26,582 bases of DNA from assembly GCA_944383195.1 (NCBI GenBank), contig CALWOP010000177.1:122390-148971 (forward strand), in the 5' to 3' direction. This stretch comes from an uncultured Oscillospiraceae bacterium (GTDB taxonomy: Bacteria > Bacillota > Clostridia > Oscillospirales > Oscillospiraceae). Under the pieces are notes generated by a model. The model ran no database searches, was not told the origin of the DNA, and was given only the letters and a program-made list of their open reading frames with translations. Within the stretch, counting starts at the first letter, position 1, and each line of letters opens with the position of its first letter. This document shows positions 5,592 to 26,582 of the stretch, piece after piece. Made by a program: the position numbers and the translations under genes.

Positions 5592-5601
5592 AGTAAAATA
5601 T

Positions 5602-5637
5602 CTGCGGGCTGCCGGAACCTAGACGACCGTCCGCAGA
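5602..5637 (+). terminator. Stem-loop downstream of the lysozyme-like gene (TCTGCGG...CCGCAGA).
   Basis: A perfect 7-bp GC-rich stem with a 21-nt loop. A T-run (CTATTTTTTGG) appears only about 20 nt later, so this is a weak terminator candidate. Confidence 0.3.
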
Positions 5638-12099: not shown

Positions 12100-12619
12100 A
12101 GCTGGAAGTGGAAAGGATACTATTCTCCATAAAATTATGGAGAAGTATCCTTCATATTTCCATGAAATTGTAAGTTGTACTACTCGTCCTCCTAGAGAGG
12201 GAGAAAAAGATGGTATTAATTATCATTTCTTGTCTATTGATGAATTTACAAGAAAGATTCTCAATGGAGATATGTTAGAGGCAACAGAATTTAATGATTG
12301 GCATTATGGTACAGATAGAGAAAGTTTAACAATAGACAAGATAAATATAGGAGTTTTCAATCCTGAAGGCATAAGGTGCTTACAGGAAGATGATAATATT
12401 GAACTATATGTATTTTATGTGCGGGCCGCAGGTAAGTAGAGACTACTAAGATAGCTAAATAGAGAAGAAAATCCAGATGTAGACGAAATAGTTAGAAGAT
12501 ATAAAACAGATGCTCAAGATTTTGGCTATCTTGAAGATATAAGATATTAGACTCTTGAAAACAATACCTTGGAAGATATTGATGTTGCTATTGATACTAT
12601 ATTTGGACAGTTTTATTAA
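12074..12619 (+). CDS. gmk: Guanylate-kinase-like nucleoside monophosphate kinase carrying 3 in-frame TAG codons.
   Basis: P-loop MGEAGSGKDT. GMP-kinase signature SCTTRPPREGEKDGINYHFLS. AAGGAGAAG RBS before ATG 12074. The frame continues through the TAGs at 12437, 12452 and 12548 to TAA at 12617. Confidence 0.7.
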
Positions 12620-12687
12620 ATAAATATATCTTAAATTACAATATATAGTGATTCACAAAAAATTCTTATACAAGGAGTTGTTTATAT

Positions 12688-13941
12688 ATGCTTCAAGTAA
12701 GAAAGAGAAATGGTATCTTAGTACCATTTGATAAAGAGCGTATTATTAATGCTATTAATAAGGCTTTTATTGAAGTTGATGGAGCTTTATATGAAGATGA
12801 TACTGCAAATGATATTGCAGATGAAATTAAATATGCAGTAAAAACTTCTGATGAAGTGGTTTCTGTTGAAAAAATTCAAGATATGGTAGAAGACTATCTT
12901 ATGAAATCTGAGCGCAGAGATGTTGCTAAAGAATATATAAGATATAGATATAAAAGAGAAATTGCGCGAAAAGGTTAGGATGATTTTATTAAGGCCTTTT
13001 CCGCAAAAATTCAAGGATCTGATATTGAAAACCAAAATGCTAATGTAGATGAAATGTCTTTTGGCGGTAGAGTTGGAGCTGCATCAGATCTACAAATGAA
13101 GAAGTATGCTCTTGATTATCTTGTTTCTAGTAAGTCAAGAGCTAATCATGAGAATAATGAAATCTATATTCATGATTTAAATGCTTATGCAGTAGGTATG
13201 CACAATTGTCTATCTATTCCTTTTGATGATTTGCTGGCAAAAGGATTTAATACTAGACAAACTGATGTGCGTCCTGCTGGTTCTATAAATACTGCTTTTT
13301 AGCTTGTTGCAGTTATTTTCCAGCTACAAAGCCTGCAACAATTTGGCGGGGTATCTGCTACTCACCTTGATTGGACTATGGTTCCATATGTAAGAAAGAG
13401 TTTCTATAAGCATTGGAATGATGGTATTCGTTATATTGGTCAAGAGATTATTCCAGATGAAATAACAGATATATTTAAGGGAAATAGAGAATTGCCTATT
13501 GATCAATACCCAAGAGATAATGAATACAGAAAGATATATAGATATGCTATAGAAATGACAGAAAAAGAAACTCATCAAGCTGTTGAAGGAATGTATCATA
13601 ATTTAAATACCCTTCAATCTCGTTCTGGAAATCAATTACCATTTACTTCTATTAACTACGGTACTTGCGCTCTTCCAGAAGGACGTATGGTTATTAAATC
13701 GTTGCTTGAAGTTTCCATAGAAGGATTAGGTAAATTACATAAAACTTCTATCTTCCCATGTGGCATCTTCCAATGTATGAAAGGCGTAAATAGAGCGCCG
13801 GGTGATCCAAACTATGATTTGTTTAGACTTGCTTTAAAGTCTACTGCTTTAAGATTATATCCTAACTATGCTAATGTTGATTGGACTGGTAATGCGGGAT
13901 ATGATAAAAATGACCCTAAGACTTATTTCAGTACCATGGGT
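12688..13941 (+). CDS. nrdD: Anaerobic ribonucleoside-triphosphate reductase NrdD, exon 1 (ATP-cone plus catalytic N-terminal part). Two in-frame TAG codons.
   Basis: ATP-cone N-terminus MLQVRKRNGILVPFDKERIINAI. The frame is continuous through the TAGs at 12976 and 13300. The exon ends ...YFSTMG at a U, followed by a group I intron (see the intron feature). Confidence 0.8.
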
Positions 13942-15078
13942 AAGCGTAAACTACAGCCCATGTAAAACCTTTTGAACCTCGCCCGAGGGTGTTTGCGGAA
14001 GTCCGATTAAAGATCGGTTTAGCAAAATCCGCAAGCTAACGGTTAGGTCCTATATGGATGAGACCGTGCTAAATTTCTAATAGAGTAAAAAATTTTGGTT
14101 AAAACTTTATAATGAACTTTGAATGGTTTTTATCTATAATAGAAGGTGCAGCACCTTTAATTGTTATTCAAAAGGAGAATATTCAATGTTCATCTATAAA
14201 ATTAGTAACACAGTAAATGATAAAGTGTATATTGGTTAGACGATTCGTCCAATAGAAGATCGTTTTAATAGACATATAAACGATGCTATGAACAATATTC
14301 TTGATACGCATTTTGCTAGAGCAATTAGACTTTATGGTCCAGATAAATTCTATATAGAATTATTGGATACTGCTAATAGTCAAGAAGAGCTTACTCAAAA
14401 AGAACGAGATTATATTCAATTATATAACTCTATTAAAAATGGATATAATGAAACTGATGCAATAAGCAAATGCGGAGGCAATACCTATAAGAATAAAACA
14501 AAAGAAGAAATGGACGTTATAAAAGAGAAAATTAGGTAGACCAAGCTTGGTGGGAAAAATCCCCATGCTGCTAAAGTAAAATGCAAGAATATTGAAACTG
14601 ATAAAGAATTATTTTTTGATAGTATGGCTGAATGTGCAGCATATTTTGGTAAAGATAATCATCAATTTATTTCTAGGAGATGCAGAGGAGAAGTAAAGAG
14701 TCTCTATGAAGGTAAATGGAAATTTGCATATCAAGATCAAGATTATAATATTTTTACCTCTAGACCAAACGCTAAAAGAACTAAACGTGTCGAAGTTTTA
14801 AATTTAGAAACTCAAGAAAAAGTAGTTTTTAATACAATGAAAGATGTTGATAGATATTGCGGCTTTGGCTTAGATTATACTAGTAAAAAATTTAAATCAA
14901 CTGGAGCTAAAGAGATTTACAGAAATCAATATAAACTTACTCTATTAGATTAAATGTGTATCGACTATCCCTGATGAGTGTAAGGGAGTAGGACTGGAGA
15001 TAGGCACCAGTTCGAAGCGGAAGGCTATCGAAAGATAGAATATATAGTCAGTGCTGATGGCAACATCAGATAATAATG
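13942..15078 (+). mobile_element. Group I self-splicing intron interrupting nrdD. It carries a GIY-YIG homing endonuclease ORF.
   Basis: The 5' exon ends CATGGGU at 13941. The intron's internal guide sequence GCCCAUG (13956-13962) pairs with it to form P1, with the U.G wobble at the splice site. The adjacent CUACA (13951-13955) pairs with the 3' exon start UGUAG (15079-15083) to form P10. The intron ends in G at 15078. The spliced junction reads ...STMG|CRTANG..., restoring a continuous NrdD frame. Structured GC-richer RNA flanks the HEG ORF on both sides. Confidence 0.75.
14186..14953 (+). CDS. Intron-encoded GIY-YIG homing endonuclease (I-TevI/II-like) carrying 2 in-frame TAG codons.
   Basis: AAAGGAGAA RBS. 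The GIY-YIG core reads FIYKISNTVNDKVYIG(TAG)T...RFNRH, which restores the canonical YIGQT if TAG is Gln. The C-terminal NUMOD-like region reads GGKNPHAAKVKCKNIETDKELFFDSMAECAAYFG. Stop codon is TAA. Confidence 0.75.
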
Positions 15079-16086
15079 TGTAGAACCGCAAATGGATTCG
15101 ACATTAATGGCTTAGGACAACAAAAAGATGGAAGAGGAAATATCTGTCCTGTAACTATTATCATGCCAACAATAGCTATGGAAGCTGTTACTCTAAGCGA
15201 CAATGACGATTGGAATCAAATTAAAGATTTGTCTCAAGATGAAAGAATAAAGATTGGCGTAGAAAGATTTATGGAACTTTTGGATACAAAAATCTATGAA
15301 GCTAAAGATATGCTGCTTGAAAGATTTGAATATATTTGCGCGCAGCCAGCTGAATCTGCTAAATTCATGTATGAGAATGGATTAATGGCTGGATATGATG
15401 GGATTTCTACTAGAAGCGCATTACAGCATGGTACTTTAAGCCTTGGACAAATTGGGCTCGCGGAAACACTTCAGATCTTGATTGGTTGTGATCATACTAC
15501 TAAAGAAGGTATGGAATTAGCAAAGAGAATTGAGAGTTTATTCAAGCAAAGATGCGCTGAATTTAAAAATCAGTATAAGCTTAACTTCGGGGTATATTAT
15601 ACTCCGGCCGAAAATCTTTGCTACACTTCTCTTGAAAAATTCAAGAAAAAGTATGGAGTAATTCCTAACGTAAGTGATAGAGAGTACTTTACTAATTCTA
15701 TCCACGTTCCCGTATGGAAACAAATCTCTCCATTTGATAAGATTGATATTGAATCTCAATTAACAGGATATTCTTCTGCTGGTTGTATTACTTATGTAGA
15801 GCTTGATAGTGGTGTGAAGAATAATATTGATGCTCTTGAAATATTAGTAAATTATGCCATGGATAAGGACATCCCGTATTTCGCTATTAATGTCCCTAAT
15901 GATACCTGTCTTGAATGTGGATATATGAATGAATTTAATGACCATTGCCCAGAATGTGGTAGTGATCATATTCAACAACTTCGTAGAGTAACAGGCTATC
16001 TTACTGGCAATTATAAGACAGCTTTTAATAAGGGCAAGATTGCTGAAACAGACGATAGAGTTAAACATGTGGGGTATATGGAATGA
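15079..16086 (+). CDS. nrdD: NrdD exon 2 (C-terminal part with zinc-ribbon and glycyl-radical motif).
   Basis: CxxC...CxxC zinc motif: CLECGYMNEFNDHCPECG. Glycyl radical motif RVTGYL. Stop codon is TGA at 16084-16086. Confidence 0.8.
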   Translation, partial: CRTANGFDINGLGQQKDGRGNICPVTIIMPTIAMEAVTLSDNDDWNQIKDLSQDERIKIGVERFMELLDTKIYEAKDMLLERFEYICAQPAESAKFMYENGLMAGYDGISTRSALQHGTLSLGQIGLAETLQILIGCDHTTKEGMELAKRIESLFKQRCAEFKNQYKLNFGVYYTPAENLCYTSLEKFKKKYGVIPNVSDREYFTNSIHVPVWKQISPFDKIDIESQLTGYSSAGCITYVELDSGVKNNIDALEILVNYAMDKDIPYFAINVPNDTCLECGYMNEFNDHCPECGSDHIQQLRRVTGYLTGNYKTAFNKGKIAETDDRVKHVGYME

Positions 16087-16742
16087 ATAAACAGCAAAAA
16101 GTTAGAGATAGTATTCTAAAAATGAATTAGGATACTTATAAAGCTAAAGATAAATATTTTGAAAAAATAACTAAAGTAATTATTTAGTGTGTAAATAATT
16201 ATTCTGCCTTAACATGGGATAAAGGATTATAGGAAGTTTTTGAACTTTTTATAGATTCTTTAACTGAAACTTATACCATTACAATGCGTGAATTAAGAAA
16301 TATATATTCTAAATTGGAAGATTTTAATATCGACGATATTTCTTAGCTTACTTATTAGGAAGATGGAAAAACATTATATGATAGAATAAAAAAGTATTGG
16401 GATCAGGCTGAATCTGATATAAAAGGTGAATTAGACTATGATTTAGTAAAAGCTTATTTGATTGATAGATATGATATGCTTTTAGAAAATGAAACTAAAA
16501 TTATATAGAGTCAAGTAGAAAAAAATAAGATAGCCCCAGTGGCTACTTTGTTAGTAATTGAATCAGAAGGCCATGATTGTAGATGGGGATGTTCAAATTA
16601 TGAGGGAGAATATTCTCCAGAAGATCCAGTTCCTCTCCCTCCTTATCATCCTAACTGTCAATGTATTTTTTATTATGTTGAGACAGATAATGATGATGAT
16701 ATTGTAGATTTAGATTTAGAAATTGAAGATATTAAGTGGTGA
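16083..16742 (+). CDS. Hypothetical Cys/His-motif protein (about 220 aa) carrying 6 in-frame TAG codons. The C-terminus resembles the MuF-type PPxHPNC(R)C motif.
   Basis: Its ATG overlaps the nrdD stop (ATGA). Frame 3 is continuous through 6 TAGs to TGA at 16740. The C-terminus reads GHDCRWGCSNYEGEYSPEDPVPLPPYHPNCQC. Confidence 0.5.
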
Positions 16743-16747
16743 TTTAA

Positions 16748-17221
16748 TTGAAATATGCAGGTATTATTTATAATGATTTTGCGGCAGCACCAGGTGTGTC
16801 CTTGAGTTTCTTTACTCAAGGATGCCCTAACCGCTGTCCGGGATGCCATAATCAAGAAACGTGGGATTTCGATGGAGGAAAAGAATTTACACATGAGGCT
16901 TTTACCTCTCTAATAGAAGGATTAACTGCAAATGGGATTAAACGAACTTTATGTGTAATGGGCGGAGAACCTCTTTGTCCAGAAAATTCTTTTCTCACGA
17001 ACTTAGTGATTCAAACCGCAAAAGAAAAAGTTCCAGATTTAAAAGTTTATCTATGGACTGGTTACTTATATGAAGATTTAAAAAAATCAACAGATACAAC
17101 TATTTAGAATATACTCCAATTAATTGATGTTCTAATTGATGGGCCTTATATTGAAGCTGAAAGAGATATTACAGAACCTCTAAGGGGTAGCCGCAATTAG
17201 AAGATTATATATCTAAAATGA
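16748..17221 (+). CDS. nrdG: Anaerobic RNR activating enzyme NrdG (radical SAM) carrying 2 in-frame TAG codons. TTG start.
   Basis: The N-terminus (MKYAGIIYNDFAAAPGVSLSFFTQGCPNRCPGCHNQETW) matches the NrdG N-terminus with its CxxxCxxC cluster. After the TAG at 17105 the C-terminal motif reads DGPYIEAERDITEPLRGSRN(TAG), the conserved GSxNQ. Stop codon is TGA at 17219. Confidence 0.8.
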
Positions 17222-17760
17222 TATTTTTTAAAAGTATCTTTGGAGGGATAATGATAGCAATAGCCAGCTATATTTATTTATCTGTTGGAGGTATAGTTGG
17301 TGCTATCATGTTCTCTATTGGCTTATTAACTATATTAAATATGGGATTTAAATTATTTACTGGCTCGGTTGGATATATCAAGAGCAAAGATGATATTAGA
17401 GATAATATTATTATTCTTATAGGTAATATTATTGGGGCTTGCGGGATTCTAGCTTTTCCGCACGCTGCAGCATTATCCTTGGTAGCCAGTAAGCTAACAA
17501 TTCCGCTATATTTAGTTTTCTTAAAAGGAGTAGTTTGTGGAATATTTATCTATTCTGCGGTTGCCTGTTTTAAGAAAAATAAAGATTATATGGTGCCAGT
17601 ATGCGTAACAGGCTTTATACTATTCGGAGGAGAACACTGTATTGCCGATCTTTGCTACGCCCTGGCCGCAAGCACCTTTTCTATTGATATATTATTATTT
17701 CTTATAGTAGTTACGATCGGTAATTCTATAGGAGCAATTATTGTTGACAGAATACAATAA
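17218..17760 (+). CDS. Integral membrane protein with about 5 TM helices. No TAG.
   Basis: Hydrophobic segments span the protein. A KLFTGS motif is faintly reminiscent of the FNT signature. The start overlaps the nrdG stop (ATGA). Confidence 0.55.
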   Translation: MIFFKSIFGGIMIAIASYIYLSVGGIVGAIMFSIGLLTILNMGFKLFTGSVGYIKSKDDIRDNIIILIGNIIGACGILAFPHAAALSLVASKLTIPLYLVFLKGVVCGIFIYSAVACFKKNKDYMVPVCVTGFILFGGEHCIADLCYALAASTFSIDILLFLIVVTIGNSIGAIIVDRIQ

Positions 17761-17796
17761 TTATGATATTATATTAAAAGAAATGGAGGACTAGAT

Positions 17797-18141
17797 ATGA
17801 CTTTATATGAACTAAATCAAGCGGGATATGCCTCCCTCCCTAAAATGACCAAAGCTGAATTAGAGAAGGCTAAGGAGAATATAGTTACTTTCTTAGATGT
17901 TCATAATTCGAGTTATTATATGATGTTAAATCATGATAATAAATATTATACTTTATTTACTTATATAGATAAGAAAGATAAAGATAGGATGGCTCTTGAG
18001 ATTATTTCAGTTGCCAAGTCTTTAGGTGAATTAAAATCTATTGAAGTAAATGGAGATATACTTGAAATTTGGATCTTATATAATAATAAATGTGATATGT
18101 ATGCTCTATTTAATTACGAGAAAGGAGTGATACAAGTATGA
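17797..18141 (+). CDS. Hypothetical protein (114 aa).
   Basis: AATGGAGGA RBS. Clean ORF. Confidence 0.5.
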   Translation: MTLYELNQAGYASLPKMTKAELEKAKENIVTFLDVHNSSYYMMLNHDNKYYTLFTYIDKKDKDRMALEIISVAKSLGELKSIEVNGDILEIWILYNNKCDMYALFNYEKGVIQV

Positions 18142-18404
18142 CAGAAGCAATTATTGTAAATTATGACCCATTTGCTATGGAATCTGCAGTCTATATTGCT
18201 AGAGACGGACAGCAAAATCAGATGAAAGTTTGTTCCAATTTAGAGGGGCTTGCGGGAACCTTGATTGGTATCGCTTATGGTCATGATATTTATGACATTA
18301 AAATTCACGCTCCATTTGCCACTACTGGAGAAATTCAAAGACTTGTAACTAATTTAGAACAGAATATGTATTCTGAAAATAAGATTATGGTTGAGGGAAT
18401 TTAA
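18138..18404 (+). CDS. Hypothetical protein (88 aa).
   Basis: AAAGGAGTGA RBS. ATGA overlap with the upstream gene. Stop codon is TAA. Confidence 0.5.
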   Translation: MTEAIIVNYDPFAMESAVYIARDGQQNQMKVCSNLEGLAGTLIGIAYGHDIYDIKIHAPFATTGEIQRLVTNLEQNMYSENKIMVEGI

Positions 18405-18406
18405 TT

Positions 18407-19147
18407 ATGTTAAAGCCAATAGATGAAACCGGTCATGTGTATGGAAAGCTAGTAGTAATAAAACGTGGCCCTAATGACAAAAATAATAGAGCTTAGTGGT
18501 TTTGCAAATGTAGCTGTGGCAATGAAATCTTAACTTTAGGCACTTATTTACGAAATAAATCTGTAACAAGTTGCGGCTGTGGTAAATTTAGTCCAAAAGT
18601 AAAGGATGAAACTGGGAAAATCTATGGAGATTGGAAAGTAATAAGACGAGATAAAAATCGCATTGGAGAAGCTTACTGGTTATGCGAATGTTTAAAATGC
18701 GGTACAATTTCTAGTGTATTAGGAACTAATTTAAGAACTGGAAAAAGTCAATCTTGCGGATGCTTAAAATCTAAAGGAGAATAGTTAATATCTTCAATTC
18801 TTACAGAGTTGAAATATAATTTCAAAAAAGAAGTTCATTTCCTAGATTTAAAGAGCCCCTTAAGCAATAACCCCTTGCGGTTTGATTTTGGAGTCTTTAA
18901 TGACGAGGATAATCTTTTATTTTTAATTGAATATCAAGGTATATAGCATGAAAAAGATATTCCTTATTTTGGCAATTCTCTACATGATAATTTATTAAGA
19001 GACGCTGCAAAACGAAAATATTGTAAGCAAAAAGGTATTCCATTAATCTGTTTTACCCATATTAATGGAAAAATTCCTAATTATGAAGATACAAAAGCAT
19101 CTATTAAAGAAAGCTACGAGGAGATTATAAATGAAATATCTAATTGA
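18407..19147 (+). CDS. Putative free-standing homing-type endonuclease carrying 2 in-frame TAG codons. It has two N-terminal zinc-ribbon repeats and a C-terminal Vsr-like / PD-(D/E)xK (DUF559-like) domain.
   Basis: Zinc-ribbon repeats: WFCKCSCGNEILTLGTYLRNKSVTSCGC and YWLCECLKCGTISSVLGTNLRTGKSQSCGC. The C-terminus (FDFGVFNDEDNLLFLIEYQGIQH...RDAAKRKYCKQKGIPLICF) resembles Vsr/DUF559 nucleases, and its E-x-x-G-x-(TAG)-H core is restored as QH. Stop codon is TGA. Confidence 0.55.
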
Positions 19148-19367
19148 TACTACCGAAATATATAGAGTAGATTCAGAAGCTGAGGCAGACCAACTACTTG
19201 AGACAGCTAAAGTTTCTGGGGTATTAAATAAATATAGCTGCGTATACAAGGAACGAAAGCAAAAAGGCGAAATTATAGATTCTTGGTATCGAGTTACTCT
19301 CAACAAAAAATTTACCGACGAAAAAGACCCAACTACCCAAATTACTATATCTTATACGGAGGAATAA
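19131..19367 (+). CDS. Hypothetical protein (78 aa).
   Basis: Clean ORF that overlaps the previous gene by 17 nt. Stop codon is TAA. Confidence 0.45.
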   Translation: MKYLIDTTEIYRVDSEAEADQLLETAKVSGVLNKYSCVYKERKQKGEIIDSWYRVTLNKKFTDEKDPTTQITISYTEE

Positions 19368-19370
19368 CAT

Positions 19371-19934
19371 ATGATAAAGTTTGAAAAAGTCTCTCGTTTT
19401 AATGACATTGATCTACCCCTGCCAACACGAGCAACCGCCAATTCCGCGGGCTATGATTTCGTTGTTGCAGAAGATATTGTTCTTCCTCCCATGAGTTTTC
19501 TTACTTCCAAAGTTCAAGATCATGTATTTGAAGAAAATAAAGATTTAGACTTTTATGGCTTTACCAATCCATTTACTCTTGATGAAATGGCCAAGCTTAC
19601 GAAAAGTTTAAAGTCAAAGGTAACTCTTGTATCAACAGGAATGAAGTGCCATCTTAATCCTGGTCAATATCTTGAATTAAGCGTGCGGAGTTCCACTCCT
19701 CTAAAACACTGGATTATTTGTGGTAATAGTGTAGGTATTATTGACGCAGACTATTGTGATAATCCCGATAACGAGGGAGAGATTTTCTTCCAATTAATTA
19801 ACTTGTCTCCTTTTGCCATTAAACTTAATAGAGGAGATAAGATTGGTCAAGGTATTATTAAAACTTATGGAATTACCGACGACGACTCTGCTACAGGAGA
19901 GCGTTTAGGTGGATTTGGAAGTACAAGTAAGTGA
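19371..19934 (+). CDS. dut: dUTP diphosphatase (trimeric dUTPase). No TAG.
   Basis: All five dUTPase motifs are present: AGYDF, VRSS, GIIDADY, GDKIGQ and ERLGGFGSTSK. Stop codon is TGA. Confidence 0.85.
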   Translation: MIKFEKVSRFNDIDLPLPTRATANSAGYDFVVAEDIVLPPMSFLTSKVQDHVFEENKDLDFYGFTNPFTLDEMAKLTKSLKSKVTLVSTGMKCHLNPGQYLELSVRSSTPLKHWIICGNSVGIIDADYCDNPDNEGEIFFQLINLSPFAIKLNRGDKIGQGIIKTYGITDDDSATGERLGGFGSTSK

Positions 19935-20410
19935 GTAATTTACTATCTTTAGATTAGAGCTCTCGCATTACGGGATATGCTATCTTTGAAGATGGTAAAC
20001 TTAAGACTTATGGGAAATTCACTGTTGATGACGATAATACTGATATAAGATTAGTAAAGATACGATAGAAGGTTTAGGAATTAATAACTAGACATAACAT
20101 AGATGAAGTCGTATTTGAAGATATACAACAATAGAATAACGTTGCTAATAATGTGTAGACTTTTAAAATTTTAGCCGAGGTATATGGAGTAATCTCTGAA
20201 TATTTAGAAGAAAATAAAATACCTCACTCTACAATTTTATCAACCTCATGGAAATCTGCTCTTGGAATTAAAGGAAGAACAAGACCAGAATAGAAGAAAA
20301 ATGCTTAGAATTATGTATTTGAAAATTATGGAGTAAAGCCTACACAAGACGAGAGTGACGCAGTTTGTATCGGTCTCGCGCACATTAAATAGAGTTAGTG
20401 CGCTTGGTAA
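19931..20410 (+). CDS. ruvC: RuvC-like Holliday-junction resolvase carrying 9 in-frame TAG codons. GTG start.
   Basis: The N-terminus LLSLD(TAG)SSRITGYAIF resembles RuvC motif I (IDxGxxxxGxA). The C-terminus DESDAVCIGLAHI resembles RuvC's DAADALAIAICHA. The GTG start overlaps the dut TGA (GTGA). Frame 2 is continuous to TAA at 20408. Confidence 0.7.
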
Positions 20411-20427
20411 TTGGGCCAAATAAAAAA

Positions 20428-20477
20428 ATCCTCCTTTCTTAACTTTGAATTATTTTGAGAAGTTAAGAAAGGAGGAT
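20428..20477. promoter_or_regulatory. Perfect 18-bp inverted repeat with a 14-nt loop. It contains an AAAGGAGGA Shine-Dalgarno-like sequence. Read on the minus strand it is followed by a U-run, so it looks like an intrinsic terminator in that orientation.
   Basis: ATCCTCCTTTCTTAACTT-(14 nt)-AAGTTAAGAAAGGAGGAT. It is preceded by AAAAAAA on the plus strand, which becomes UUUUUUU after the stem for minus-strand RNA. Confidence 0.5.
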
Positions 20478-20496
20478 CTTACAATTGACCTTCATA

Positions 20497-20913
20497 ATGG
20501 AGCATATAGTAGAGATTATATTTGGCCTAATTTCCGCCGGCGCGCTTGCATTTTGTAGACACTTATATAAATAGCTAAAAGAGTATAAAAGTCTGCTTTA
20601 GGAGAAAAGAAATGATAATCTGATAGACCTTATAGACGAAAAGCTAAAACCTATTCTTGATGATATTGAAGAATTAAGAGCTTATATTCGCAAGATAGAA
20701 GGAAAAGAAAATCGAGATTTGACCCTTATTATTTCTTCTTATAGATTTAGATTAGTCTAGCTATGTAAGATTTATATTAAACAAGGATATATGACACAAG
20801 ATCAATATGATTAGCTTACAGAATTTTATAAGCTATATCATTCTCTAGGCGGAAATGGACAAGCTAAAGAGTATTATGAGAAAACAATGGAATTAGAGAT
20901 TAGACCAGAATAA
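20497..20913 (+). CDS. Small membrane protein of the BhlA/UviB (holin-like) type carrying 5 in-frame TAG codons.
   Basis: N-terminal TM segment IVEIIFGLISAGALAFC, followed by a charged coiled-coil and a C-terminal ...QGYMTQDQYDQLTEFYKLYHSLGGNG. The frame is continuous through the TAGs to TAA at 20911. No Shine-Dalgarno sits within normal spacing; the nearest one is inside the upstream hairpin. Confidence 0.5.
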
Positions 20914-20917
20914 TAAA

Positions 20918-20952
20918 AACGGGGAACTCAATTGAGTTCCCCGTTTCGTTTT
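20918..20952. terminator. Bidirectional rho-independent terminator between convergent genes.
   Basis: AACGGGGAACTC-AATT-GAGTTCCCCGTT, flanked by AAAAA upstream and TCGTTTT downstream. Confidence 0.7.
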
Positions 20953-21254
20953 AATCGGTTAAATATTGAATTAGTCATATTTATTATTTCTTGACCATAA
21001 GTTGCAATTAAATCCGCTAATAATTCTTCTTGTTCAAGAGATAATTCAATATTATAACTAAACATTGCAGCGTGTGTTAACTCGTGACATAAAACTTTTT
21101 TCATCATTAATGGAGATAATTCTTCATTAATATAGATTCCTTTAGTTTTATCATCACAGGCTCCTATTGTTAATTGGCCATCACTTCTAATTAACATAGG
21201 ATGAACTGGAGAGGTTAAAAATAATTTCCATTCTTCTCCATTAATATTAAGCAT
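20928..21254 (-). CDS. Small HExxH zinc-metallopeptidase-like protein (108 aa). No TAG.
   Basis: HELTH motif (VLCHELTHAAM) with a downstream Glu. Its ATG overlaps the upstream gene's stop (ATGCTTAA), suggesting translational coupling. Stop codon is TGA. Confidence 0.5.
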   Translation of the reverse strand: MLNINGEEWKLFLTSPVHPMLIRSDGQLTIGACDDKTKGIYINEELSPLMMKKVLCHELTHAAMFSYNIELSLEQEELLADLIATYGQEIINMTNSIFNRLKRNGELN

Positions 21255-21849
21255 GATTTAAAGAAGATACTTTTGTAGCAAGAGCAGAAATCTTTTTCTC
21301 TAATAGCTATTTTTCTTCTGGGCTTGCATCATCAATCATTTCTACTAAATCTTCACTTAATTCTTTCATATATTTATCTAACTCTCTAATCTTGGTATCT
21401 TTATCTTTATGAAGTTCTTTAGACTCCATATACATACGACGGCTCATTGGACTACGACCTTCTCTAGAATCTCTCAATTCCATAGGAAATTCTCTTTCAT
21501 CATAATAATAAGGTTTTTCTCTATAATTCTTGCGGCCGCCGCTATTACCCTCGGTAAATCTTCCCTAAGAATCTCTACCTTGAGGATAATACATTCTTCC
21601 CCATTCGTCTTTATCCATATCTCTATCTGGGAGATAATAAGGATAAGTCATAGGAATATAGTATTTTGTTGGTTCTTTTTCTTTTTCTTCCATAGCTTTG
21701 GTGATAGTACAATAATATATGGCTTCTTCTAAGTCTTTAATCATATCAATTACTTCACCAAGTTCGTGAGTATCTACATTATGGATGTCGCTTAGTTGAG
21801 CTTGAACGCATCCAATAAGAGTTTCCTTCATATGTTTTAATCTTTCCAT
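21247..21849 (-). CDS. Hypothetical protein (200 aa) carrying 2 in-frame TAG codons. It has a structured N-terminal region of about 60 aa followed by a Y/R/E/D-rich low-complexity region.
   Basis: The track ORF 21565..21849 ends at a TAG. The frame then continues (GRDS-Q-GRFTEGNSGGRKNYREKPYYYDEREF...) to TAA at 21247. Confidence 0.5.
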
Positions 21850-21884
21850 AATTAAGCCACCCTTTCAATAATTAAATTAGCGTT

Positions 21885-22274
21885 CTAAACATCAATAGCT
21901 TGAGTAGATAGATTCTTTACAGCTACTTCAAAGCAACATCCACGTGGGACATCTACAAAAATAGAACTAGATACGTTATTATATTCTCCAGTAGTTGCAG
22001 GAGTAGAAATCATAGTACTTGTGGCTACTCCTTCTCCATTAATAGCAATAGCTAAAGAAATTGGGTCTGCGGTCCCGCCTGTGGCGATCGCTATATTCCC
22101 GCTAAAAGTAATTCTATATCTAGCTCTGCATTGAGTTGTCGTATTTCCTTTTAAAGTTACTAGTCCACTGCCTGTACGGTGTAGTAGGCTGTTGGAACAG
22201 CCTACTACCGTATCAGTAAAAAGGACATTTTGATTAGCTTGTACGGTTTGTACAGCATTCGCAATAATTTCCAT
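21885..22274 (-). CDS. BclA C-terminal-domain-like (C1q/TNF jelly-roll-like) protein, 129 aa. No TAG.
   Basis: AAGGAGAG lies 10 nt before the ATG. The sequence has a beta-rich pattern similar to the BclA CTD (RYRITFSGNIAIATGGTADPISLAIAINGEGVATSTMISTPATTGEYNNVSSSIFVDVPRGCCFEVAV). Stop codon is TAA. Confidence 0.5.
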   Translation of the reverse strand: MEIIANAVQTVQANQNVLFTDTVVGCSNSLLHRTGSGLVTLKGNTTTQCRARYRITFSGNIAIATGGTADPISLAIAINGEGVATSTMISTPATTGEYNNVSSSIFVDVPRGCCFEVAVKNLSTQAIDV

Positions 22275-22303
22275 TGAACCAAATCTCTCCTTTATTAATT
22301 AAA

Positions 22304-23203
22304 TTAGCACCCGCAAGTGCTTACTCCATAGCAGCAATTAGGATTGGGTACTACATATGCGGGGACCGGACAATCGCGGCCCAGTCTACGGATAAGTTCT
22401 GCTTGATTTGCATCCATTGCTGCCATAAGGGTAGCGTTTTGAGTGCTTTGAGAAGCTGCAAGACGGAGTGCCTGATTCTCGTTCTGAAGATCTGTAATTT
22501 TCTCCTGGCAGAGATAATCAAGAATAGCACGAGTTCCAGCATTTTGACTATCAATAATATCACGAGTATTATTGGCCAAAGAAGTCTGGAGAGCAGAGGT
22601 GTTTGTTGCCATATTATAGTTGACATCGGCAAAGCCTCTCTCAATCTGGCGTCCGGTTTCGCAGCAACAATCTGCAATTTGACGAGAAATAGCATTTTGA
22701 TTAGTAATATTATCAAAATTAGCTTGCTAAATTGTAGATTTAGTATCGCAGCAACAATTAGAAAGCTGCGTAGCTAAAGCATTCTGTCCTTGCATTAAAG
22801 CAACGCTAGCATTATTAAATCCTTGCTGAGTCTGATAACCAAGCTGGCAAATTGCATTATCAACTCCGTGGAATCCATTAGTAAGAGAATTATTTAAGGC
22901 ATATGTGCTGTCGCAAATACCCTGTTGAATCCCTGTAATGCCGCTCTGAAGATTCTGTAATGCAAAACCTTCATTTATGTCTGCGCGAGTAGCCCAGCCT
23001 TGTCCAGAAGGAGAGCCGAGTCCTCCATTACCACTACCATATCCTCCACCAAAGCCAAAACCGTTTCCCCAACCAGAGAAACAGAAGAGGAAGAGAATAA
23101 TGATCCACCATGCGCCACCGTCGTTCCACATATTGCCGGACCCAGAATTTCCGGTCGCTGCCGCAATATCTGCTAAAGAGTATCCATTGTTAGAATTGAA
23201 CAT
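22304..23203 (-). CDS. Membrane-anchored Gly-rich, Q/N-rich protein (299 aa) with repeated CCC(D/E)T motifs and a Cys-rich C-terminus. One in-frame TAG.
   Basis: AAAGGAGGAA lies 8 nt before the ATG. TM segment AWWIIILFLFCF is followed by GWGNGFGFGGGYGSGNGG. The ORF is continuous from 23203 through a TAG at 22727 to TAA at 22304, joining the three track ORFs 22727..23203, 22351..22716 and 22304..22612. Cys motifs: NCCCDTK, DCCCETG and a terminal CPVPAYVVPNPNCCYGVSTCGC. Confidence 0.55.
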
Positions 23204-23216
23204 TTAAGTTCCTCCT

Positions 23217-23249
23217 TTAAGAAAATTTAAAGGCCGAGCATTTTCTTAA
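23217..23249. promoter_or_regulatory. Perfect 10-bp inverted repeat with a 13-nt spacer.
   Basis: TTAAGAAAAT-(13 nt)-ATTTTCTTAA. It overlaps the stop of the small upstream gene and lies about 14 nt upstream of the Shine-Dalgarno of the CCC-motif gene. Confidence 0.35.
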
Positions 23250-23460
23250 AGTTGGCAAACTCCTTATCGTAATCTAATCCTCTTTGAGACATAATATTTC
23301 TTGCTATTTGCTCAATTTCTGCTGTTTTATTCTATTTAGCCAGATCTAGCAAATTAGCTCCAAATGGATTATTCCCCATCTAGTTTTCTAACATATATAA
23401 TGCTAACTATTGAGGATTCTATCCATTCCTGATCATTTGAATTAACTCCATTGGGTTCAT
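23227..23460 (-). CDS. Hypothetical small protein (77 aa) carrying 4 in-frame TAG codons.
   Basis: AAGGAGAAG lies 7 nt before the ATG. The frame is continuous through the TAGs to TAA. Confidence 0.45.
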
Positions 23461-23472
23461 CTTATCTTCTCC

Positions 23473-23871
23473 TTAAAAATCTAATTTTGGCTTTGACTGT
23501 TGCGTCGTCTCTTGAGGCGGCGCAATTTTTTCTTTTAACTAAGCTAATGCGGTTTCAAATTCTTCCCTAGTAATATACTGAGAAGGATTGATAACTGTTT
23601 CTGTCGGGGTATTCTTTAATTCATAAATATTAAGAGTTGAAGTTCCATCAAGATTAATCTACTTTGTATATATCTTTTTATTCGCTAAGTCAGGAAAGAA
23701 AAATACTGAACCATCAAAGTCAATACTAGTCGCCTTTACTTCTTCGATTGAAGAAACTGGGCGACCTTTAATTCCAATCTAGGACTATTCCACATACTGC
23801 ATTCTCTATTGCGGCATATAAGGGGTGGCCGCAAATTGTTGTGGCATATAGTATGGATAATTGACTGCCAT
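23473..23871 (-). CDS. Hypothetical protein (132 aa) carrying 5 in-frame TAG codons.
   Basis: AAAGGAGGTAAAACT precedes the ATG. A protein-like sequence (GIKGRPVSSIEEVKATSIDFDGSVFFFPDLANKKIY...) reads through the TAGs. Stop codon is TAA. Confidence 0.5.
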
Positions 23872-23899
23872 AGTTTTACCTCCTTTAAAATATTCCCTT

Positions 23900-23984
23900 G
23901 GCCTTTCATTGATATATAAAAATTTGGCAAAGATAATTTTACTATTTTGCCAAAAATTTTGCCAATTTTATAGTAAAAAAATAT
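23900..23984 (-). promoter_or_regulatory. Candidate promoter for the minus-strand cluster. It sits among TTGGCAAA / TTTGCCAA inverted and direct repeats that look like operators.
   Basis: Minus-strand reading: TTGGCA-(18 nt)-TAAAAT. Plus-strand reading: TTGGCAAAgataattttactatTTTGCCAAaaattTTGCCAA. Confidence 0.35.
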
Positions 23985-24006
23985 AATGGGGCGTAGTAGC
24001 CCCATT
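23985..24006 (-). terminator. Rho-independent terminator directly after the LL-H holin gene (minus strand).
   Basis: AATGGGGC-GTAGTA-GCCCCATT stem-loop, followed on the minus strand by UAUAUUUUUUUACUA. Confidence 0.55.
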
Positions 24007-24009
24007 ATA

Positions 24010-24394
24010 TTATTCTCTGTTCTTATTAACTTCGGCCTCGATGAGGTTAGTTAGATAAGTATTTAAGTCACCTGTAGTTTCAATAATATACTGCTTTGCA
24101 TCTTCTGATAAGATTTCTAATACTGCATTCATAGTCTTATTAAATGCAGTTTTCTGAGCTTCCGCATCAAAAGCATTCTGCTCTTTTAGACTATTTACAT
24201 AAGTTTGATTCGTTGCTATTACGCACTTTGTAATAGTATCAAAGATCATAGTAGTATATTTTTCAGCTGTCTCATTCTCTGTTTTAGCATTTAACTCATC
24301 TCGTTTTGCATTGAGATAGTCAACAAGATATTTAGTTAAAATACCAAGCAAAGGAATGATACAAAGCTAGAAGATCTGAATAATAATTTCTGGC
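24010..24394 (-). CDS. Phage holin, LL-H family-like (one N-terminal TM), carrying one in-frame TAG.
   Basis: AAAGGAGGAA RBS. TM segment MPEIIIQIF(Q)LCIIPLLGILTKYLV. The body (ATNQTYVNSLKEQNAFDAEAQKTAFNKT...EAEVNKNRE) resembles Holin_LLH. Stop codon is TAA. Confidence 0.6.
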
Positions 24395-24548
24395 ATAGTT
24401 ATAATTCCTCCTTTATATATTATATAAAACAAGAGGAAGATGATTTAACTATTATTGGCCTTATTACACTTTACTGAACTTGGACAACTATATATAATTT
24501 ATCTACTCTTTCTTTCAAATATATTTGAAAAGAGTAAGATACTCACTT

Positions 24549-24587
24549 TTGGGAAAAGGGTTTCTTACCCTTTTCCCAATTTTTTTA
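24549..24587 (+). terminator. Strong plus-strand intrinsic terminator with no annotated plus-strand gene upstream of it.
   Basis: TTGGGAAAAGGGT-TTCTT-ACCCTTTTCCCAA (13-bp stem) followed by TTTTTTTAT. Confidence 0.65.
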
Positions 24588-24698
24588 TTATCTAGAAAGA
24601 AGAAGTATTTTTCCTGTTAAAAAGTGTACTTTTTCTCGGAAATTGTTTATAGACTTCTAAAAGACTGGAGCGAAGATCGCTTCCATCCTCGACCTTCT

Positions 24699-24745
24699 AT
24701 CTAGTAATTTAGATATATCTAGAACAATAGCTAGATAGAAGGAGG
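24699..24745. promoter_or_regulatory. Two adjacent palindromes built from TATCTAG / CTAGATA heptamers, immediately upstream of the Ig-like gene's RBS.
   Basis: cTATCTAGtaattTAGATAtaTCTAGAacaatagCTAGATAgaaGGAGG. Confidence 0.35.
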
Positions 24746-24754
24746 TAAACAACT

Positions 24755-26536
24755 TTGCCTAAATGTATTTTAACTGAATAGGGTGGAAAAGGCGGAGGAG
24801 GCGGCTCTATTTCCCTTATTAAGATTGAGGTAACAACTCCACCTAATAAAACTAGCTATCTCGCGGGCGACACCTTTAATCCTGCGGGAATGGTGATCAC
24901 CGCATCTTACGGCATGGAAGGCGTAGTTATTACAACGGCAGAAGTAACTGGCTATCAAGTTACTCCTTCTCCTCTTACTGATGGAACTCAGCAAGTAACC
25001 ATTACTTATTCTGAGCTGGGAGAGACTTGTCAAACTACTTATCCTGTAACTGTAACTCATAGACTTACAAGTATTGAAGTAACTTCTAATCCCTCTACTA
25101 TAACTTATGAGTATGGAGATACTCTTCAAACAACAGGAATAGTAGTTACTGCTCACTACTCTGACGGAGATACATCTGCGGTTTCCGGGTATCAATGCTC
25201 TCCAACCTCGCTTACTACAGTAGGTAGTCAACAGATTACAGTTAGTTATAGCGAGAATGGTGTAACTCAAACTACTACATTTAATGTAACAGTTAATCGT
25301 AAGTCTGTAGCTAAGCCAACTTGGAAGAGTAATCTCACCTATAATGGTAACTCTCAGTCTGTTAATGGAACAAGCTATTGGAATAACTTTAATACTACCT
25401 ATATGAGTATTGGTGGCACAACTTCTGCTACTAATGCAGGAACTTATACTGCTACATTTACTCCTGGTAGTAATTATCGTTGGTCTGATGGAACAACTGA
25501 TCCTATTAACGTAAATTGGACTATCAATCGTGCAGCCGGATCTTTAAGTGTGTCTCCTTAGACTGTTGAGATCAATGGTAATAACTATAGTTCTGGCGTA
25601 AATGTTACTATTACTCGCTCTGGAGATGGCGCTATTAGTTATAGTCCTACTAGTGTAAGCGGCTTAACTTTAAGTTTAAGTGGTAACACTTTAAATATTA
25701 AAGGTAATGGTTCTACTGCTATTAGCGGACAAAAAATTACTATCAATGTCGCTCAAGGAACTAACTACCTGGCTCCCGCAAGCAAACAGATTACTGTCAA
25801 TGCTACTTATTGGGAATGGGGCTCTGAAACCGCTGTAGGAGATGCCTCTTGGTGGGCTGGATTAAAAACTTGGGCTGCTAGTGCTAGCACTTCTGAAAGA
25901 AGCGCTTGTGTCGGTAAGAAAAAGAAAGTAAGTCTTTCTACTGCTGTGTTAGGTGCTAATCAAGCCTCTATGGTTTGTATTGGTGCAGACCAAGACGGAG
26001 CTGGTACTTTAACTTTCCAAACTGAAGGTACTTTACCAACTACTACTTAGTTTGGTAGTAATGCAGTATGGATTGGTTCTACTGCTAGAAGTCAATGTTA
26101 GAATTTCTACAATTATTGTAGTGCTAAAAATTCTATTAAGACTGTAAGTAAAGGTACTTGTCCTAGCACAAACGATTCAAGAAATGGCTCTGTAACTTAC
26201 AGCAACGAAACCGTATGGTTACCGTCTGAACGAGAGATGGGATTAGATAGCTATGCTCCAATTTCTACGGCCAATAGCACAACCTCTAAAGCTGAATGTA
26301 CAAAGGGTCATAATGCTGCCTATAGTTACTATACAAATAATAGCAGACGCATTAAATATCAGATGAACGCCAATGGTTCGTTGACGAGTTCAGCGTAGTG
26401 GTATTGGGAGAGGTCTCGTTATTACCGTTCGGACATCTCGACCTACGTTTGCGTTGTCGGCAGCGGTGGCTCTGCGGACTTCTACGGCTACTACATCGTC
26501 AGCCACGGGCTCGCGCCGGCTTTCGTTATCGGATAA
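24755..26536 (+). CDS. Ig-like (Big_3-type) repeat-containing protein (about 593 aa) carrying 5 in-frame TAG codons. The last roughly 45 codons are GC-rich and dominated by NNC codons, making them a candidate DGR variable region.
   Basis: GAAGGAGGTAAACAAC precedes TTG 24755. The frame is continuous through TAGs at 24776, 25559, 26047, 26098 and 26395 to TAA at 26534. Ig-like repeats include ITVSYSENGVTQTTTFNVTV and VTITYSELGETCQTTYPVTV. No signal peptide. Confidence 0.6.
26395..26536 (+). repeat. Candidate DGR variable region / GC-rich island at the 3' end of the Ig-like gene.
   Basis: About 57% GC against about 32% in the rest of the window. 22 of 36 codons are NNC (gac atc acc tac tgc gtc ggc agc ...). 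The window ends 46 nt downstream, so no template repeat (TR) or reverse transcriptase (RT) is visible. Confidence 0.35.
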
Positions 26537-26582
26537 TACAGCAAAATAATATTCAGGACAGTTAAGATTAAATTGTCCAGCA

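What the first reader, a model, noticed from the sequence alone, without database searches (positions are those of the whole stretch)
26395..26536. GC-rich, NNC-codon-dominated 3' end of the Ig-like repeat gene, a candidate diversity-generating-retroelement variable region
The last roughly 140 nt of the 24755..26536 gene jump to about 57% GC in a roughly 32% GC genome. Of 36 codons, 22 end in C (gac atc acc tac tgc gtc ggc agc ggc gac ttc tac ggc tac tac atc gtc agc cac ctc ttc atc), against the strong A/T third-position preference elsewhere in the gene. The stretch is adenine-poor and ends in a GC-rich segment (CACGGGCTCGCGCCGGC) before the stop. This matches DGR targets: an Ig-like N-terminal region, a C-terminal VR whose AAC-templated positions appear as NNC codons, and a GC-rich IMH-like 3' boundary. 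The window ends 46 nt later, so the template repeat, the Avd-like accessory gene and the RT, if present, lie just outside. The alternative is a recently acquired high-GC C-terminal module.
Basis: inference. Interest (0 to 1): 0.75.

Follow-up and report, generated by a model that had tools for sequence, protein, structure and literature searches.

The report
DGR variable region in phage gene
The GC-rich, NNC-codon tail of this phage gene is the hypervariable target of a diversity-generating retroelement whose template repeat, Avd-like protein and reverse transcriptase lie just past the window end; it is a clear but ordinary example of a known system.

Summary
Window 26412-26519 is the variable region (VR) of a diversity-generating retroelement (DGR). 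It forms the C-terminal end of a DUF6273 / C-type-lectin-fold domain in a protein with two Big_3 Ig-like domains (gene 24755-26536, open only if TAG is read as Gln).

A contig 100% identical to window 24560-26582, VR included, continues past the window end. It carries an Avd-like four-helix-bundle gene, a 106-nt template repeat (TR) starting 728 nt after the VR start, and a DGR-type reverse transcriptase. All 22 VR/TR substitutions fall on TR adenines.

Two other genomes are 100% identical to the window over 10.6 and 17.5 kb except for 18 substitutions and a 3-nt indel, all inside 26433-26505. Across 21 related TR/VR pairs, 404 of 406 mismatches are at TR adenines.

The NNC codons come from 13 AAC codons in the TR. 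The high GC comes from A-to-N replacement.

One oddity remains: the VR is one codon longer than its TR inside the AAC run, which fits RT slippage, a reported non-canonical DGR outcome.

DGRs that target DUF6273 in gut Firmicutes phages, and DGRs in stop-codon-recoded phages, are already published, so this is a new member of a known kind.

The parts
24755..26536 (+). DGR target gene (593 codons from TTG 24755; public gene calls start at ATG 24890 and give 548 aa). It has five in-frame TAG codons at 24779, 25559, 26048, 26099 and 26396, read as Gln.
   Evidence: The frame is open only with TAG read-through. TAG columns align with Q in orthologues. AAGGAGG at 24739 lies 9 nt before the TTG. The first Big_3 match begins at residue 29, upstream of ATG 24890, which favours the TTG start. 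The exact 548-aa product is in public collections (P0001).
24839..25294 (+). Two Big_3 bacterial Ig-like domains (residues 29-100 and 116-180).
   Evidence: Pfam PF07523, E = 1.1e-7 and 1.6e-11, both above the gathering score.
25802..26533 (+). C-terminal globular domain: DUF6273 with a C-type-lectin-like fold. The Pfam match covers residues 431-592, which is nt 26045-26530.
26412..26519 (+). Variable region (VR), 108 nt, homologous to the 105-nt TR core. There are 22 substitutions at 26427-26504, all opposite TR adenines, and one extra codon inside the AAC run (placement ambiguous within about 26477-26503).
   Evidence: Gapped alignment to the TR of L034. All 21 differences from the otherwise identical genomes L023 and L025 fall in 26433-26505. 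Eleven VR variants share this TR: 33 of 35 A positions vary, against 1 of 70 non-A positions.
26507..26519 (+). GC-rich IMH-like 3' boundary (GGGCTCGCGCCGG). It is identical in VR and TR. After it the VR continues CTTTCG and the TR continues ATTAGA.
   Evidence: The motif pair CTCGCGCC[GC]GCTTTC (VR) and CTCGCGCC[GC]GATTAG (TR) is present once each in every related locus that has downstream DNA.
26556..26578 (+). Sequence-conserved imperfect inverted repeat (GGACAGTT / AATTGTCC, 7-nt loop) in the target-avd intergenic region. Its role is unknown; a homing-enhancing hairpin, a terminator or an operator are all possible.
   Evidence: It folds as an 8-bp stem, but the z-score is only -0.33. The sequence is conserved in divergent relatives (L002, L003, L005) without clear compensatory changes. 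No promoter or terminator consensus hit was found there.

Best explanation
Window 26412-26519 is the variable region of an active diversity-generating retroelement (DGR) in an uncultivated phage of about 150 kb that reads TAG as Gln. The sequenced relatives come from metagenomes, several of them human-associated.

The cassette order is target gene (Big_3 x2 + DUF6273/C-lectin fold, VR at the extreme C-terminus), then an Avd-like four-helix-bundle gene (164 aa), then the TR (about 106 nt), then about 360 nt of structured spacer, then the reverse transcriptase (387 aa). Only the target gene lies in the window. The other parts begin 79 nt past its end; in window-equivalent coordinates, avd is about 26615-27109, the TR about 27140-27244 and the RT about 27607-28770.

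Inferred mechanism, by analogy with Bordetella phage BPP-1: the TR-spacer RNA is reverse-transcribed by the RT/Avd complex with random misincorporation opposite template adenines. The cDNA then replaces the VR, with the invariant GC-rich IMH marking the 3' junction.

The TR carries 13 AAC codons, with its adenines almost only at codon positions 1 and 2. The VR therefore becomes a string of NNC codons that can never mutate to a stop codon, it loses adenine and it gains GC.

The result is massive variation of about 17 residues on the ligand-binding face of a C-lectin-fold domain carried on an Ig-like stalk. This is most likely a receptor-binding or adhesion protein of the virion.

Shown here: the repeat pair, the adenine specificity, variation confined to the VR between otherwise identical genomes, RT identity, the Avd-like fold and the C-lectin fold. 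Inferred: cDNA-mediated homing, the protein's location on the virion, and its ligand.
For: Continuation of the window: L034 is 100% identical to window 24560-26582 including the VR, and it carries the accessory gene, TR and RT downstream.

Adenine specificity: all 22 substitutions between the window VR and this TR are at TR adenines (A>G 11, A>T 8, A>C 3). In 21 related TR/VR pairs, 404 of 406 mismatches are at TR adenines, with two single non-A exceptions in L011 and L019. Among 11 VRs sharing this TR, 33 of 35 A positions vary against 1 of 70 non-A positions.

Confined variation: L023 and L025 equal the window over 10,582 and 17,452 bp except for 21 differing alignment columns, all within 26433-26505. 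The 90%-identity cluster of the target protein has 210 members, and all 15 sequences read differ in the VR peptide.

Reverse transcriptase: RVT_1 E = 1.7e-16 on the L002 orthologue. phrog_1423 'Reverse transcriptase' E = 1.2e-77. The best solved relative is the RT of the DGR ribonucleoprotein entry 8ub7 (E = 5.5e-14), with aligned LGSQTSQ/IGSLTSQ and YMDD motifs; this beats group II intron RTs (5.8e-7). The closest annotated phage RTs are those of the DGR phages nd12 (35%) and Roseburia phage Shimadzu (33%).

Target domain: DUF6273 with a C-lectin fold that includes TvpA among its matches.

TR composition: 13 of 34 codons are AAC, and the adenines sit at codon positions 1/2/3 as 15/19/1.
Against: The TR, Avd and RT are not in the window itself. 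They are assigned through an identical overlapping contig from another assembly (Logan, run ERR4096310), and I could not read the 148,971-bp record on which the exact protein is also listed.

The VR is 3 nt longer than the TR, which is not canonical mutagenic homing.

No read-level data were available to show within-sample heterogeneity.
Confidence: 0.96

Rival explanations
1. The segment is a recently acquired high-GC C-terminal module (horizontal transfer or recombination), not a retroelement target.
For: There is a sharp local GC jump to 56% in a 34% GC window.
Against: The same segment has a cognate repeat 728 nt downstream that differs only at adenines. The repeat is 48.6% GC and the VR is 61%, so the extra GC is produced in situ by A-to-N changes. 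Otherwise identical genomes differ only here. The rest of the DUF6273 domain is contiguous and conserved.
Confidence: 0.01
2. This is a fossil DGR: the VR was diversified in the past, the element is no longer active in this genome, and the observed variants are inherited alleles.
For: No read-level heterogeneity could be examined. L023 and L025, from two different samples, share one VR, so VRs can be stable during spread.
Against: The window differs from L023/L025 by 18 substitutions and one 3-nt indel in 73 nt, and by 0 differences in up to 17.4 kb of flank. That requires very recent VR-specific change. The RT ORF is intact with YMDD. TR, IMH and Avd are intact in every strain. Eleven strains with the same TR each have a different VR.
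Confidence: 0.03
3. The extra codon in the VR relative to the TR is an assembly artefact (a chimeric path through a mixed VR population in the repetitive NAC run), not a biological slippage product.
For: VR populations are heterogeneous, and assemblers do make errors here: P0013 is a VR-to-TR chimera. The extra codon lies in a repetitive run. Both listings of this exact VR protein may derive from the same reads.
Against: A second lineage with a different TR type also has a VR one codon longer than its TR in the same run. It is seen in both an ENA scaffold and a Logan contig (L035, L036). Apart from the extra codon, every other position still obeys the A-only rule. A survey reports that about 7% of DGRs have TR/VR length differences, mostly adjacent to AAC repeats, and attributes them to RT slippage (PMC5758913; also PMC12875486).
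Confidence: 0.25

Closest known systems
Bordetella phage BPP-1 DGR (mtd-avd-TR-brt)
   Different: The target is not Mtd-like: it has two Big_3 Ig-like domains plus DUF6273 rather than a trimeric Mtd, and no PDB sequence match. The accessory protein has no detectable sequence similarity to Avd and is longer (164 aa). The host phage is about 150 kb, about 34% GC in the window, and reads TAG as Gln. The VR here carries a one-codon insertion relative to the TR.
DUF6273-type DGR targets of gut Firmicutes phages (Faecalibacterium prophages Lelie, CP11, Roos and Pioen; phages nd4 and nd12; Toutatisvirus)
   Same: In those systems the VR maps to the C-terminus of DUF6273, which is modelled as a C-lectin fold and is often combined with Ig-like domains (PMC11792537; PMC10743442; bioRxiv 10.1101/2024.10.15.618418). 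The closest annotated RT is that of nd12 (35% identity).
   Different: No annotated phage record holds a detectable homologue of this target domain (tblastn). The domain order (Ig-like N-terminal, C-lectin C-terminal) is the reverse of the 'tentaclin' definition. Only one VR was found per locus. The genome is much larger and is code-15 recoded.
Roseburia phage Shimadzu DGR (tail fibre - Avd - RT)
   Same: The cassette order is identical and the RT is 33% identical. Its annotated Avd likewise has no Pfam match.
   Different: Profile comparison of the two accessory proteins is not significant (hhalign probability 6.7%). Shimadzu is a 45-kb phage using the standard code.
Treponema denticola TvpA (DGR variable protein, 2y3c)
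   Different: Only 12% identity. TvpA is a bacterial lipoprotein, not a phage protein, and it lacks the Ig-like stalk.

Membership tests
Diversity-generating retroelement (DGR) | A TR/VR pair of near-identical repeats of about 100 nt, with the VR inside a coding gene | tested here: met
   VR at window 26412-26519. TR at L034 2581-2685, on the contig identical to the window end. No TR copy lies inside the window itself.
Diversity-generating retroelement (DGR) | TR-to-VR differences restricted to TR adenines (A-to-N) | tested here: met
   22 of 22 substitutions in this genome. 404 of 406 mismatches in 21 related pairs. The one-codon insertion is a known non-canonical outcome (PMC5758913).
Diversity-generating retroelement (DGR) | An adjacent reverse transcriptase of the DGR clade (I/LGxxxSQ motif, YxDD) | tested here: met
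   387-aa ORF at L034 3048-4211. RVT_1 on the L002 orthologue and phrog_1423. The best PDB match is the DGR RNP reverse transcriptase 8ub7_A, with LGSQTSQ and YMDD aligned. It lies outside the window.
Diversity-generating retroelement (DGR) | An accessory variability determinant (Avd-type four-helix bundle) between target and TR | tested here: met
Diversity-generating retroelement (DGR) | IMH at the VR 3' end, with a diverged IMH* at the TR 3' end | tested here: met
   GGGCTCGCGCCGG is identical in both, followed by CTTTCG (VR) or ATTAGA (TR). This pairing is conserved in all 24 loci that have downstream DNA.
Diversity-generating retroelement (DGR) | Ongoing diversification confined to the VR | tested here: met
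   Between-sample evidence only. There are 0 differences in 10.6 and 17.5 kb of flank and 21 differing alignment columns within 26433-26505. Eleven different VRs share one TR. Within-sample read heterogeneity was not testable.
Diversity-generating retroelement (DGR) | cDNA-mediated mutagenic retrohoming demonstrated | not testable with these tools
   This requires an experiment or RNA/cDNA sequencing.
Pfam DUF6273 (PF19789), C-type-lectin-like fold | HMM match above the gathering score, and a C-lectin-like fold | tested here: met
Tentaclins (Baykov et al. 2023) | [quoted passage not shown] | tested here: not met
   The order here is reversed: Big_3 at residues 29-180 and the C-lectin/DUF6273 domain at residues 350-593. 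The definition is taken from PMC10743442.
Phage with genetic code 15 (TAG = Gln) | In-frame TAG codons in conserved genes that align with Gln, plus a suppressor tRNA | tested here: inconclusive
   In-frame TAGs occur in many window ORFs, and TAG columns align with Q. No tRNA gene lies in the window, and the rest of the genome was not examined.

The most novel reading that the evidence does not exclude
In this phage lineage the DGR may diversify the length of the binding loop as well as its sequence. The reverse transcriptase would recurrently slip by one codon on the (AAC)4-TAC-(AAC)2 run, so VRs one codon longer than the TR arise and are kept. This is seen in the window/L034 and independently in L035/L036, which have a different TR type. 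If slippage is frequent and selected, it would be a second, programmed mode of diversification, carried here by an Avd that is unrecognisable at the sequence level.
Probability: 0.3. Interest if true: 0.45.

Novelty: new member of a known kind. Interest (0 to 1): 0.3.

Why it matters
The result shows that a reader working from sequence alone can recognise a DGR target from codon and composition signatures when the TR and RT are off-window.

It also annotates an uncharacterised, widespread lineage of about 150-kb TAG-recoded phages known only from metagenome assemblies. The exact neighbouring protein is indexed in 228 blocks of the public collection, and the target's 90% cluster has 210 members. 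The hypervariable Ig-stalk/C-lectin protein is the best candidate for the host- or mucus-binding determinant of this lineage.

Biologically it adds one more example to an established class. The only mildly unusual points are the codon-length change relative to the TR and an Avd detectable only by fold.

Tried and rejected
- **TR inside the window:** direct-repeat search and a short-word BLAST of the TR found no copy other than the VR.
- **Exact 32-mer from the gene in IMG/VR:** no hit.
- **Annotated phage records:** DNA similarity of the window end gave only an irrelevant 66% hit, and the target domain has no tblastn hit.
- **A TR carrying the extra AAC codon:** this would have made the window VR canonical. 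It was absent from IMG/VR. A length-tolerant pattern in JGI metagenomes returned one locus with the normal length. The cognate contig L034 has the normal 106-nt TR.
- **Direct look-up of the Q-substituted protein as letters:** It succeeded through the id from the cluster look-up.
- **PDB sequence searches:** the target domain and the accessory protein gave no hits.
- **Rfam:** nothing at the gathering threshold on the window, and only sub-threshold chance hits on L034.
- **Second DUF6273 gene in the strain-variable island of L014/L022:** tested as a second VR, but it has no TR homology.
- **Hairpin downstream of the VR:** the fold is no better than shuffles (z = -0.33), and no promoter or terminator consensus lies there.
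- **hhalign of the accessory protein against the Roseburia phage Shimadzu Avd:** not significant.

Full report
**1. The observation**

Window 26395-26536 is 56.3% GC and 15.5% A, in a window that averages 33.8% GC. Only about 0.1% of all 142-nt windows reach this GC or fall to this A content, and all of those overlap this locus. In the last 45 codons of the frame, 23 end in C and 1 ends in A. In the preceding part of the gene 79 of 548 end in C (Fisher p = 4.7e-8). The GC-rich CACGGGCTCGCGCCGGC is at 26504-26520.

The frame contains five in-frame TAG codons (24779, 25559, 26048, 26099, 26396), so it is a gene only if TAG is read through. Many other ORFs in the window also carry in-frame TAGs. 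In an alignment of 26 orthologues the TAG columns are mostly shared with Gln (for example 15 TAG / 10 Q, 15 TAG / 11 Q, 24 Q / 1 TAG). This is therefore a TAG-to-Gln recoded phage. A strong Shine-Dalgarno sequence (AAGGAGG at 24739) precedes TTG 24755, and the first Big_3 domain starts at residue 29. Both favour the long ORF over the ATG 24890 used by public gene calls.

**2. What lies beyond the window end**

No repeat of the segment exists inside the window, so I looked for relatives.

- A peptide-pattern scan of IMG/VR with the TAG-free stretch upstream of the segment returned 13 loci from phage contigs of up to 139 kb, most of them 80-139 kb. In all 11 loci that have downstream DNA, a gapless repeat of 102-106 nt lies about 660-740 nt downstream (start to start) and is 76-85% identical. 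Every mismatch is a TR adenine opposite any base in the VR, with one exception, a C-to-T in L011.
- Look-ups of exact window proteins found much closer genomes. L023 is identical to window 16001-26582 and L025 to window 9131-26582, except for 18 substitutions and one 3-nt indel. All of these fall inside 26433-26505.
- The window's own target protein (TAG as Q, from ATG 24890) is in the public collection (P0001; sources NCBI, ENA, Logan). One contig that carries it, L034 (Logan assembly of ERR4096310, 5,336 bp), is 100% identical to window 24560-26582 including the VR, and runs 3.3 kb further.
- L034 holds a 164-aa ORF (L034 2056-2550), the TR (2581-2685, followed by ATTAG), about 360 nt of spacer, and a 387-aa RT ORF (3048-4211). 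In window-equivalent coordinates the TR would start at about 27140, 728 nt after the VR start.

**3. The DGR signature**

Aligned to this TR with one 3-nt gap, the window VR (26412-26519) has 22 substitutions. All are opposite TR adenines (A>G 11, A>T 8, A>C 3), out of 35 adenines available.

Homology ends just after the invariant GGGCTCGCGCCGG (26507-26519). After it the VR reads CTTTCG and the TR reads ATTAGA, which is an IMH/IMH*-type boundary. It is conserved in every related locus.

Across 21 TR/VR pairs, 404 of 406 mismatches are at adenines (A>G 220, A>T 102, A>C 82). Among 11 different VRs that share this exact TR, 33 of 35 adenine positions vary but only 1 of 70 non-adenine positions does.

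The TR encodes SRYYHSNNSNNVCNVNNDGSANNNNYNNSNGLAP. Thirteen of its 34 codons are AAC, and its adenines sit at codon positions 1/2/3 as 15/19/1. That is exactly why the VR appears as NNC codons. The TR is 48.6% GC and 33% A, and the VR is 61% GC and 13% A. The GC jump is therefore largely a product of A-to-N replacement, and no foreign module needs to be invoked.

**4. The proteins**

*Reverse transcriptase.* It matches RVT_1 (E = 1.7e-16 on the L002 orthologue) and phrog_1423 'Reverse transcriptase' (E = 1.2e-77). Its best solved relative is the RT of the DGR ribonucleoprotein entry 8ub7 (E = 5.5e-14), ahead of group II intron RTs. The alignment includes LGSQTSQ against IGSLTSQ and the YMDD box. 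The nearest annotated phage RTs are those of the DGR phages nd12 (35%) and Roseburia phage Shimadzu (33%). In Shimadzu the order is tail fibre, Avd, RT.

**5. The one irregularity**

The window VR has ten codons between GCG and GGG, where its cognate TR has nine (AAC AAC AAC AAC TAC AAC AAC AGC AAC). Adding one AAC on either side of the TAC restores a perfect adenine-only pattern.

No TR with the extra codon was found in IMG/VR or in JGI metagenomes, and L034 itself has the nine-codon TR. A second lineage with a different TR type shows the same one-codon excess in the same run, in both an ENA scaffold and a Logan contig.

Wu et al. 2018 report TR/VR length differences in about 7% of DGRs, mostly adjacent to AAC repeats, and attribute them to RT slippage (PMC5758913). 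A 2026 study of the reconstituted BPP-1 DGR invokes the same model (PMC12875486). I therefore read it as slippage. An assembler artefact in a heterogeneous repeat cannot be excluded without reads. One cluster member, P0013, is clearly a VR-to-TR assembly chimera.

**6. Comparison with what is known, and novelty**

DGR targets whose VR maps to the C-terminus of DUF6273, often combined with Ig-like domains, have been described in Faecalibacterium prophages (PMC11792537), in phages nd4 and nd12 (PMC10743442) and in Toutatisvirus (bioRxiv 10.1101/2024.10.15.618418). DGRs and stop-codon recoding are discussed together in several gut-phage studies.

The phage itself looks like an undescribed lineage.
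- Its DnaE-type polymerase is about 40% identical to those of SPbeta-like Bacillus phages and large Enterococcus phages.
- No annotated phage record holds the target domain.
- A 147.9-kb, 35% GC TAG-recoded contig (BK048656) mentioned in PMC10607447 is a possible relative that I could not test.

The finding is a new member of a known kind.

**7. Verdict**

My confidence that 26412-26519 is the VR of a recently active DGR is about 0.96. Interest is modest (0.3): the example is clear and well supported, and its only slightly unusual features are a one-codon length change relative to the TR and an Avd visible only by fold.

Noticed in passing
window 1-26582 (e.g. ORFs 3033-4784, 19931-20410, 16083-16742): In-frame TAG codons occur in many ORFs: 13 in 3033-4784, 9 in 19931-20410 and 6 in 16083-16742. 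These include replication and nucleotide-metabolism genes, not only late genes. No tRNA gene is present in the window, so any suppressor tRNA must lie elsewhere.
   Followed up: partly
window 13941-15078: The anaerobic ribonucleotide reductase gene (nrdD) is interrupted by a precise 1,138-bp insertion carrying a GIY-YIG endonuclease ORF (14123-14953), relative to strains with an intact 739-757-aa NrdD. It looks like a mobile intron, but no Rfam intron family matched, even at relaxed thresholds.
   Followed up: partly
window about 24461-24464 (between the 128-aa minus-strand gene and the DGR target gene): In 7 of the 10 related strains from the first look-up (L014-L023), a variable island of 2.3-2.7 kb with a serine recombinase (Resolvase) and changing cargo is inserted here. 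It is absent from the window. In L014 and L022 the cargo includes a second DUF6273 protein (316 aa) with no TR homology, so it is not a second DGR target.
   Followed up: partly
L034 about 2686-2810 (outside the window, 3' of the TR): The RNA just 3' of the TR has a conserved long stem (GAUUAGAUGGA / UCCAUCUAAUU) that encloses a GC-rich hairpin. Divergent relatives show a few compensatory changes (4 of 34 pairs). This is plausibly the structured spacer of the DGR RNA. No Rfam family matched.
   Followed up: partly
L035 about 5508-5630 and L036 about 3205-3327 (VR); P0009: A second strain lineage with a different, 100-nt TR type also has a VR one codon longer than its TR in the same (AAC)4-TAC-(AAC)2 run. 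This suggests recurrent slippage.
   Followed up: yes
P0013 (563 aa, ENA contig of 3,736 bp): This cluster member ends in the TR-encoded Asn-rich peptide followed by spacer-derived sequence. The assembler jumped from the VR to the TR. It is a caution for DGR loci in short-read assemblies.
   Followed up: no
window 18407-19147: A 246-aa ORF rich in Cys-x-Cys motifs and containing 3 TAGs was found as a full-length 246-aa gene only in the window and its closest relatives (L023, L025) among the loci examined. It is likely another mobile insertion.
   Followed up: no
window 24755-24810; L002 7701-8360 (-); L005 6993-8420 (-): The target protein starts with the motif PKCILTEQ followed by a Gly-rich linker. 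Similar N-terminal motifs (ECILTGQ, KCILQGQ) start the neighbouring fibre-like proteins in distant relatives. This could be a shared virion-attachment peptide.
   Followed up: no
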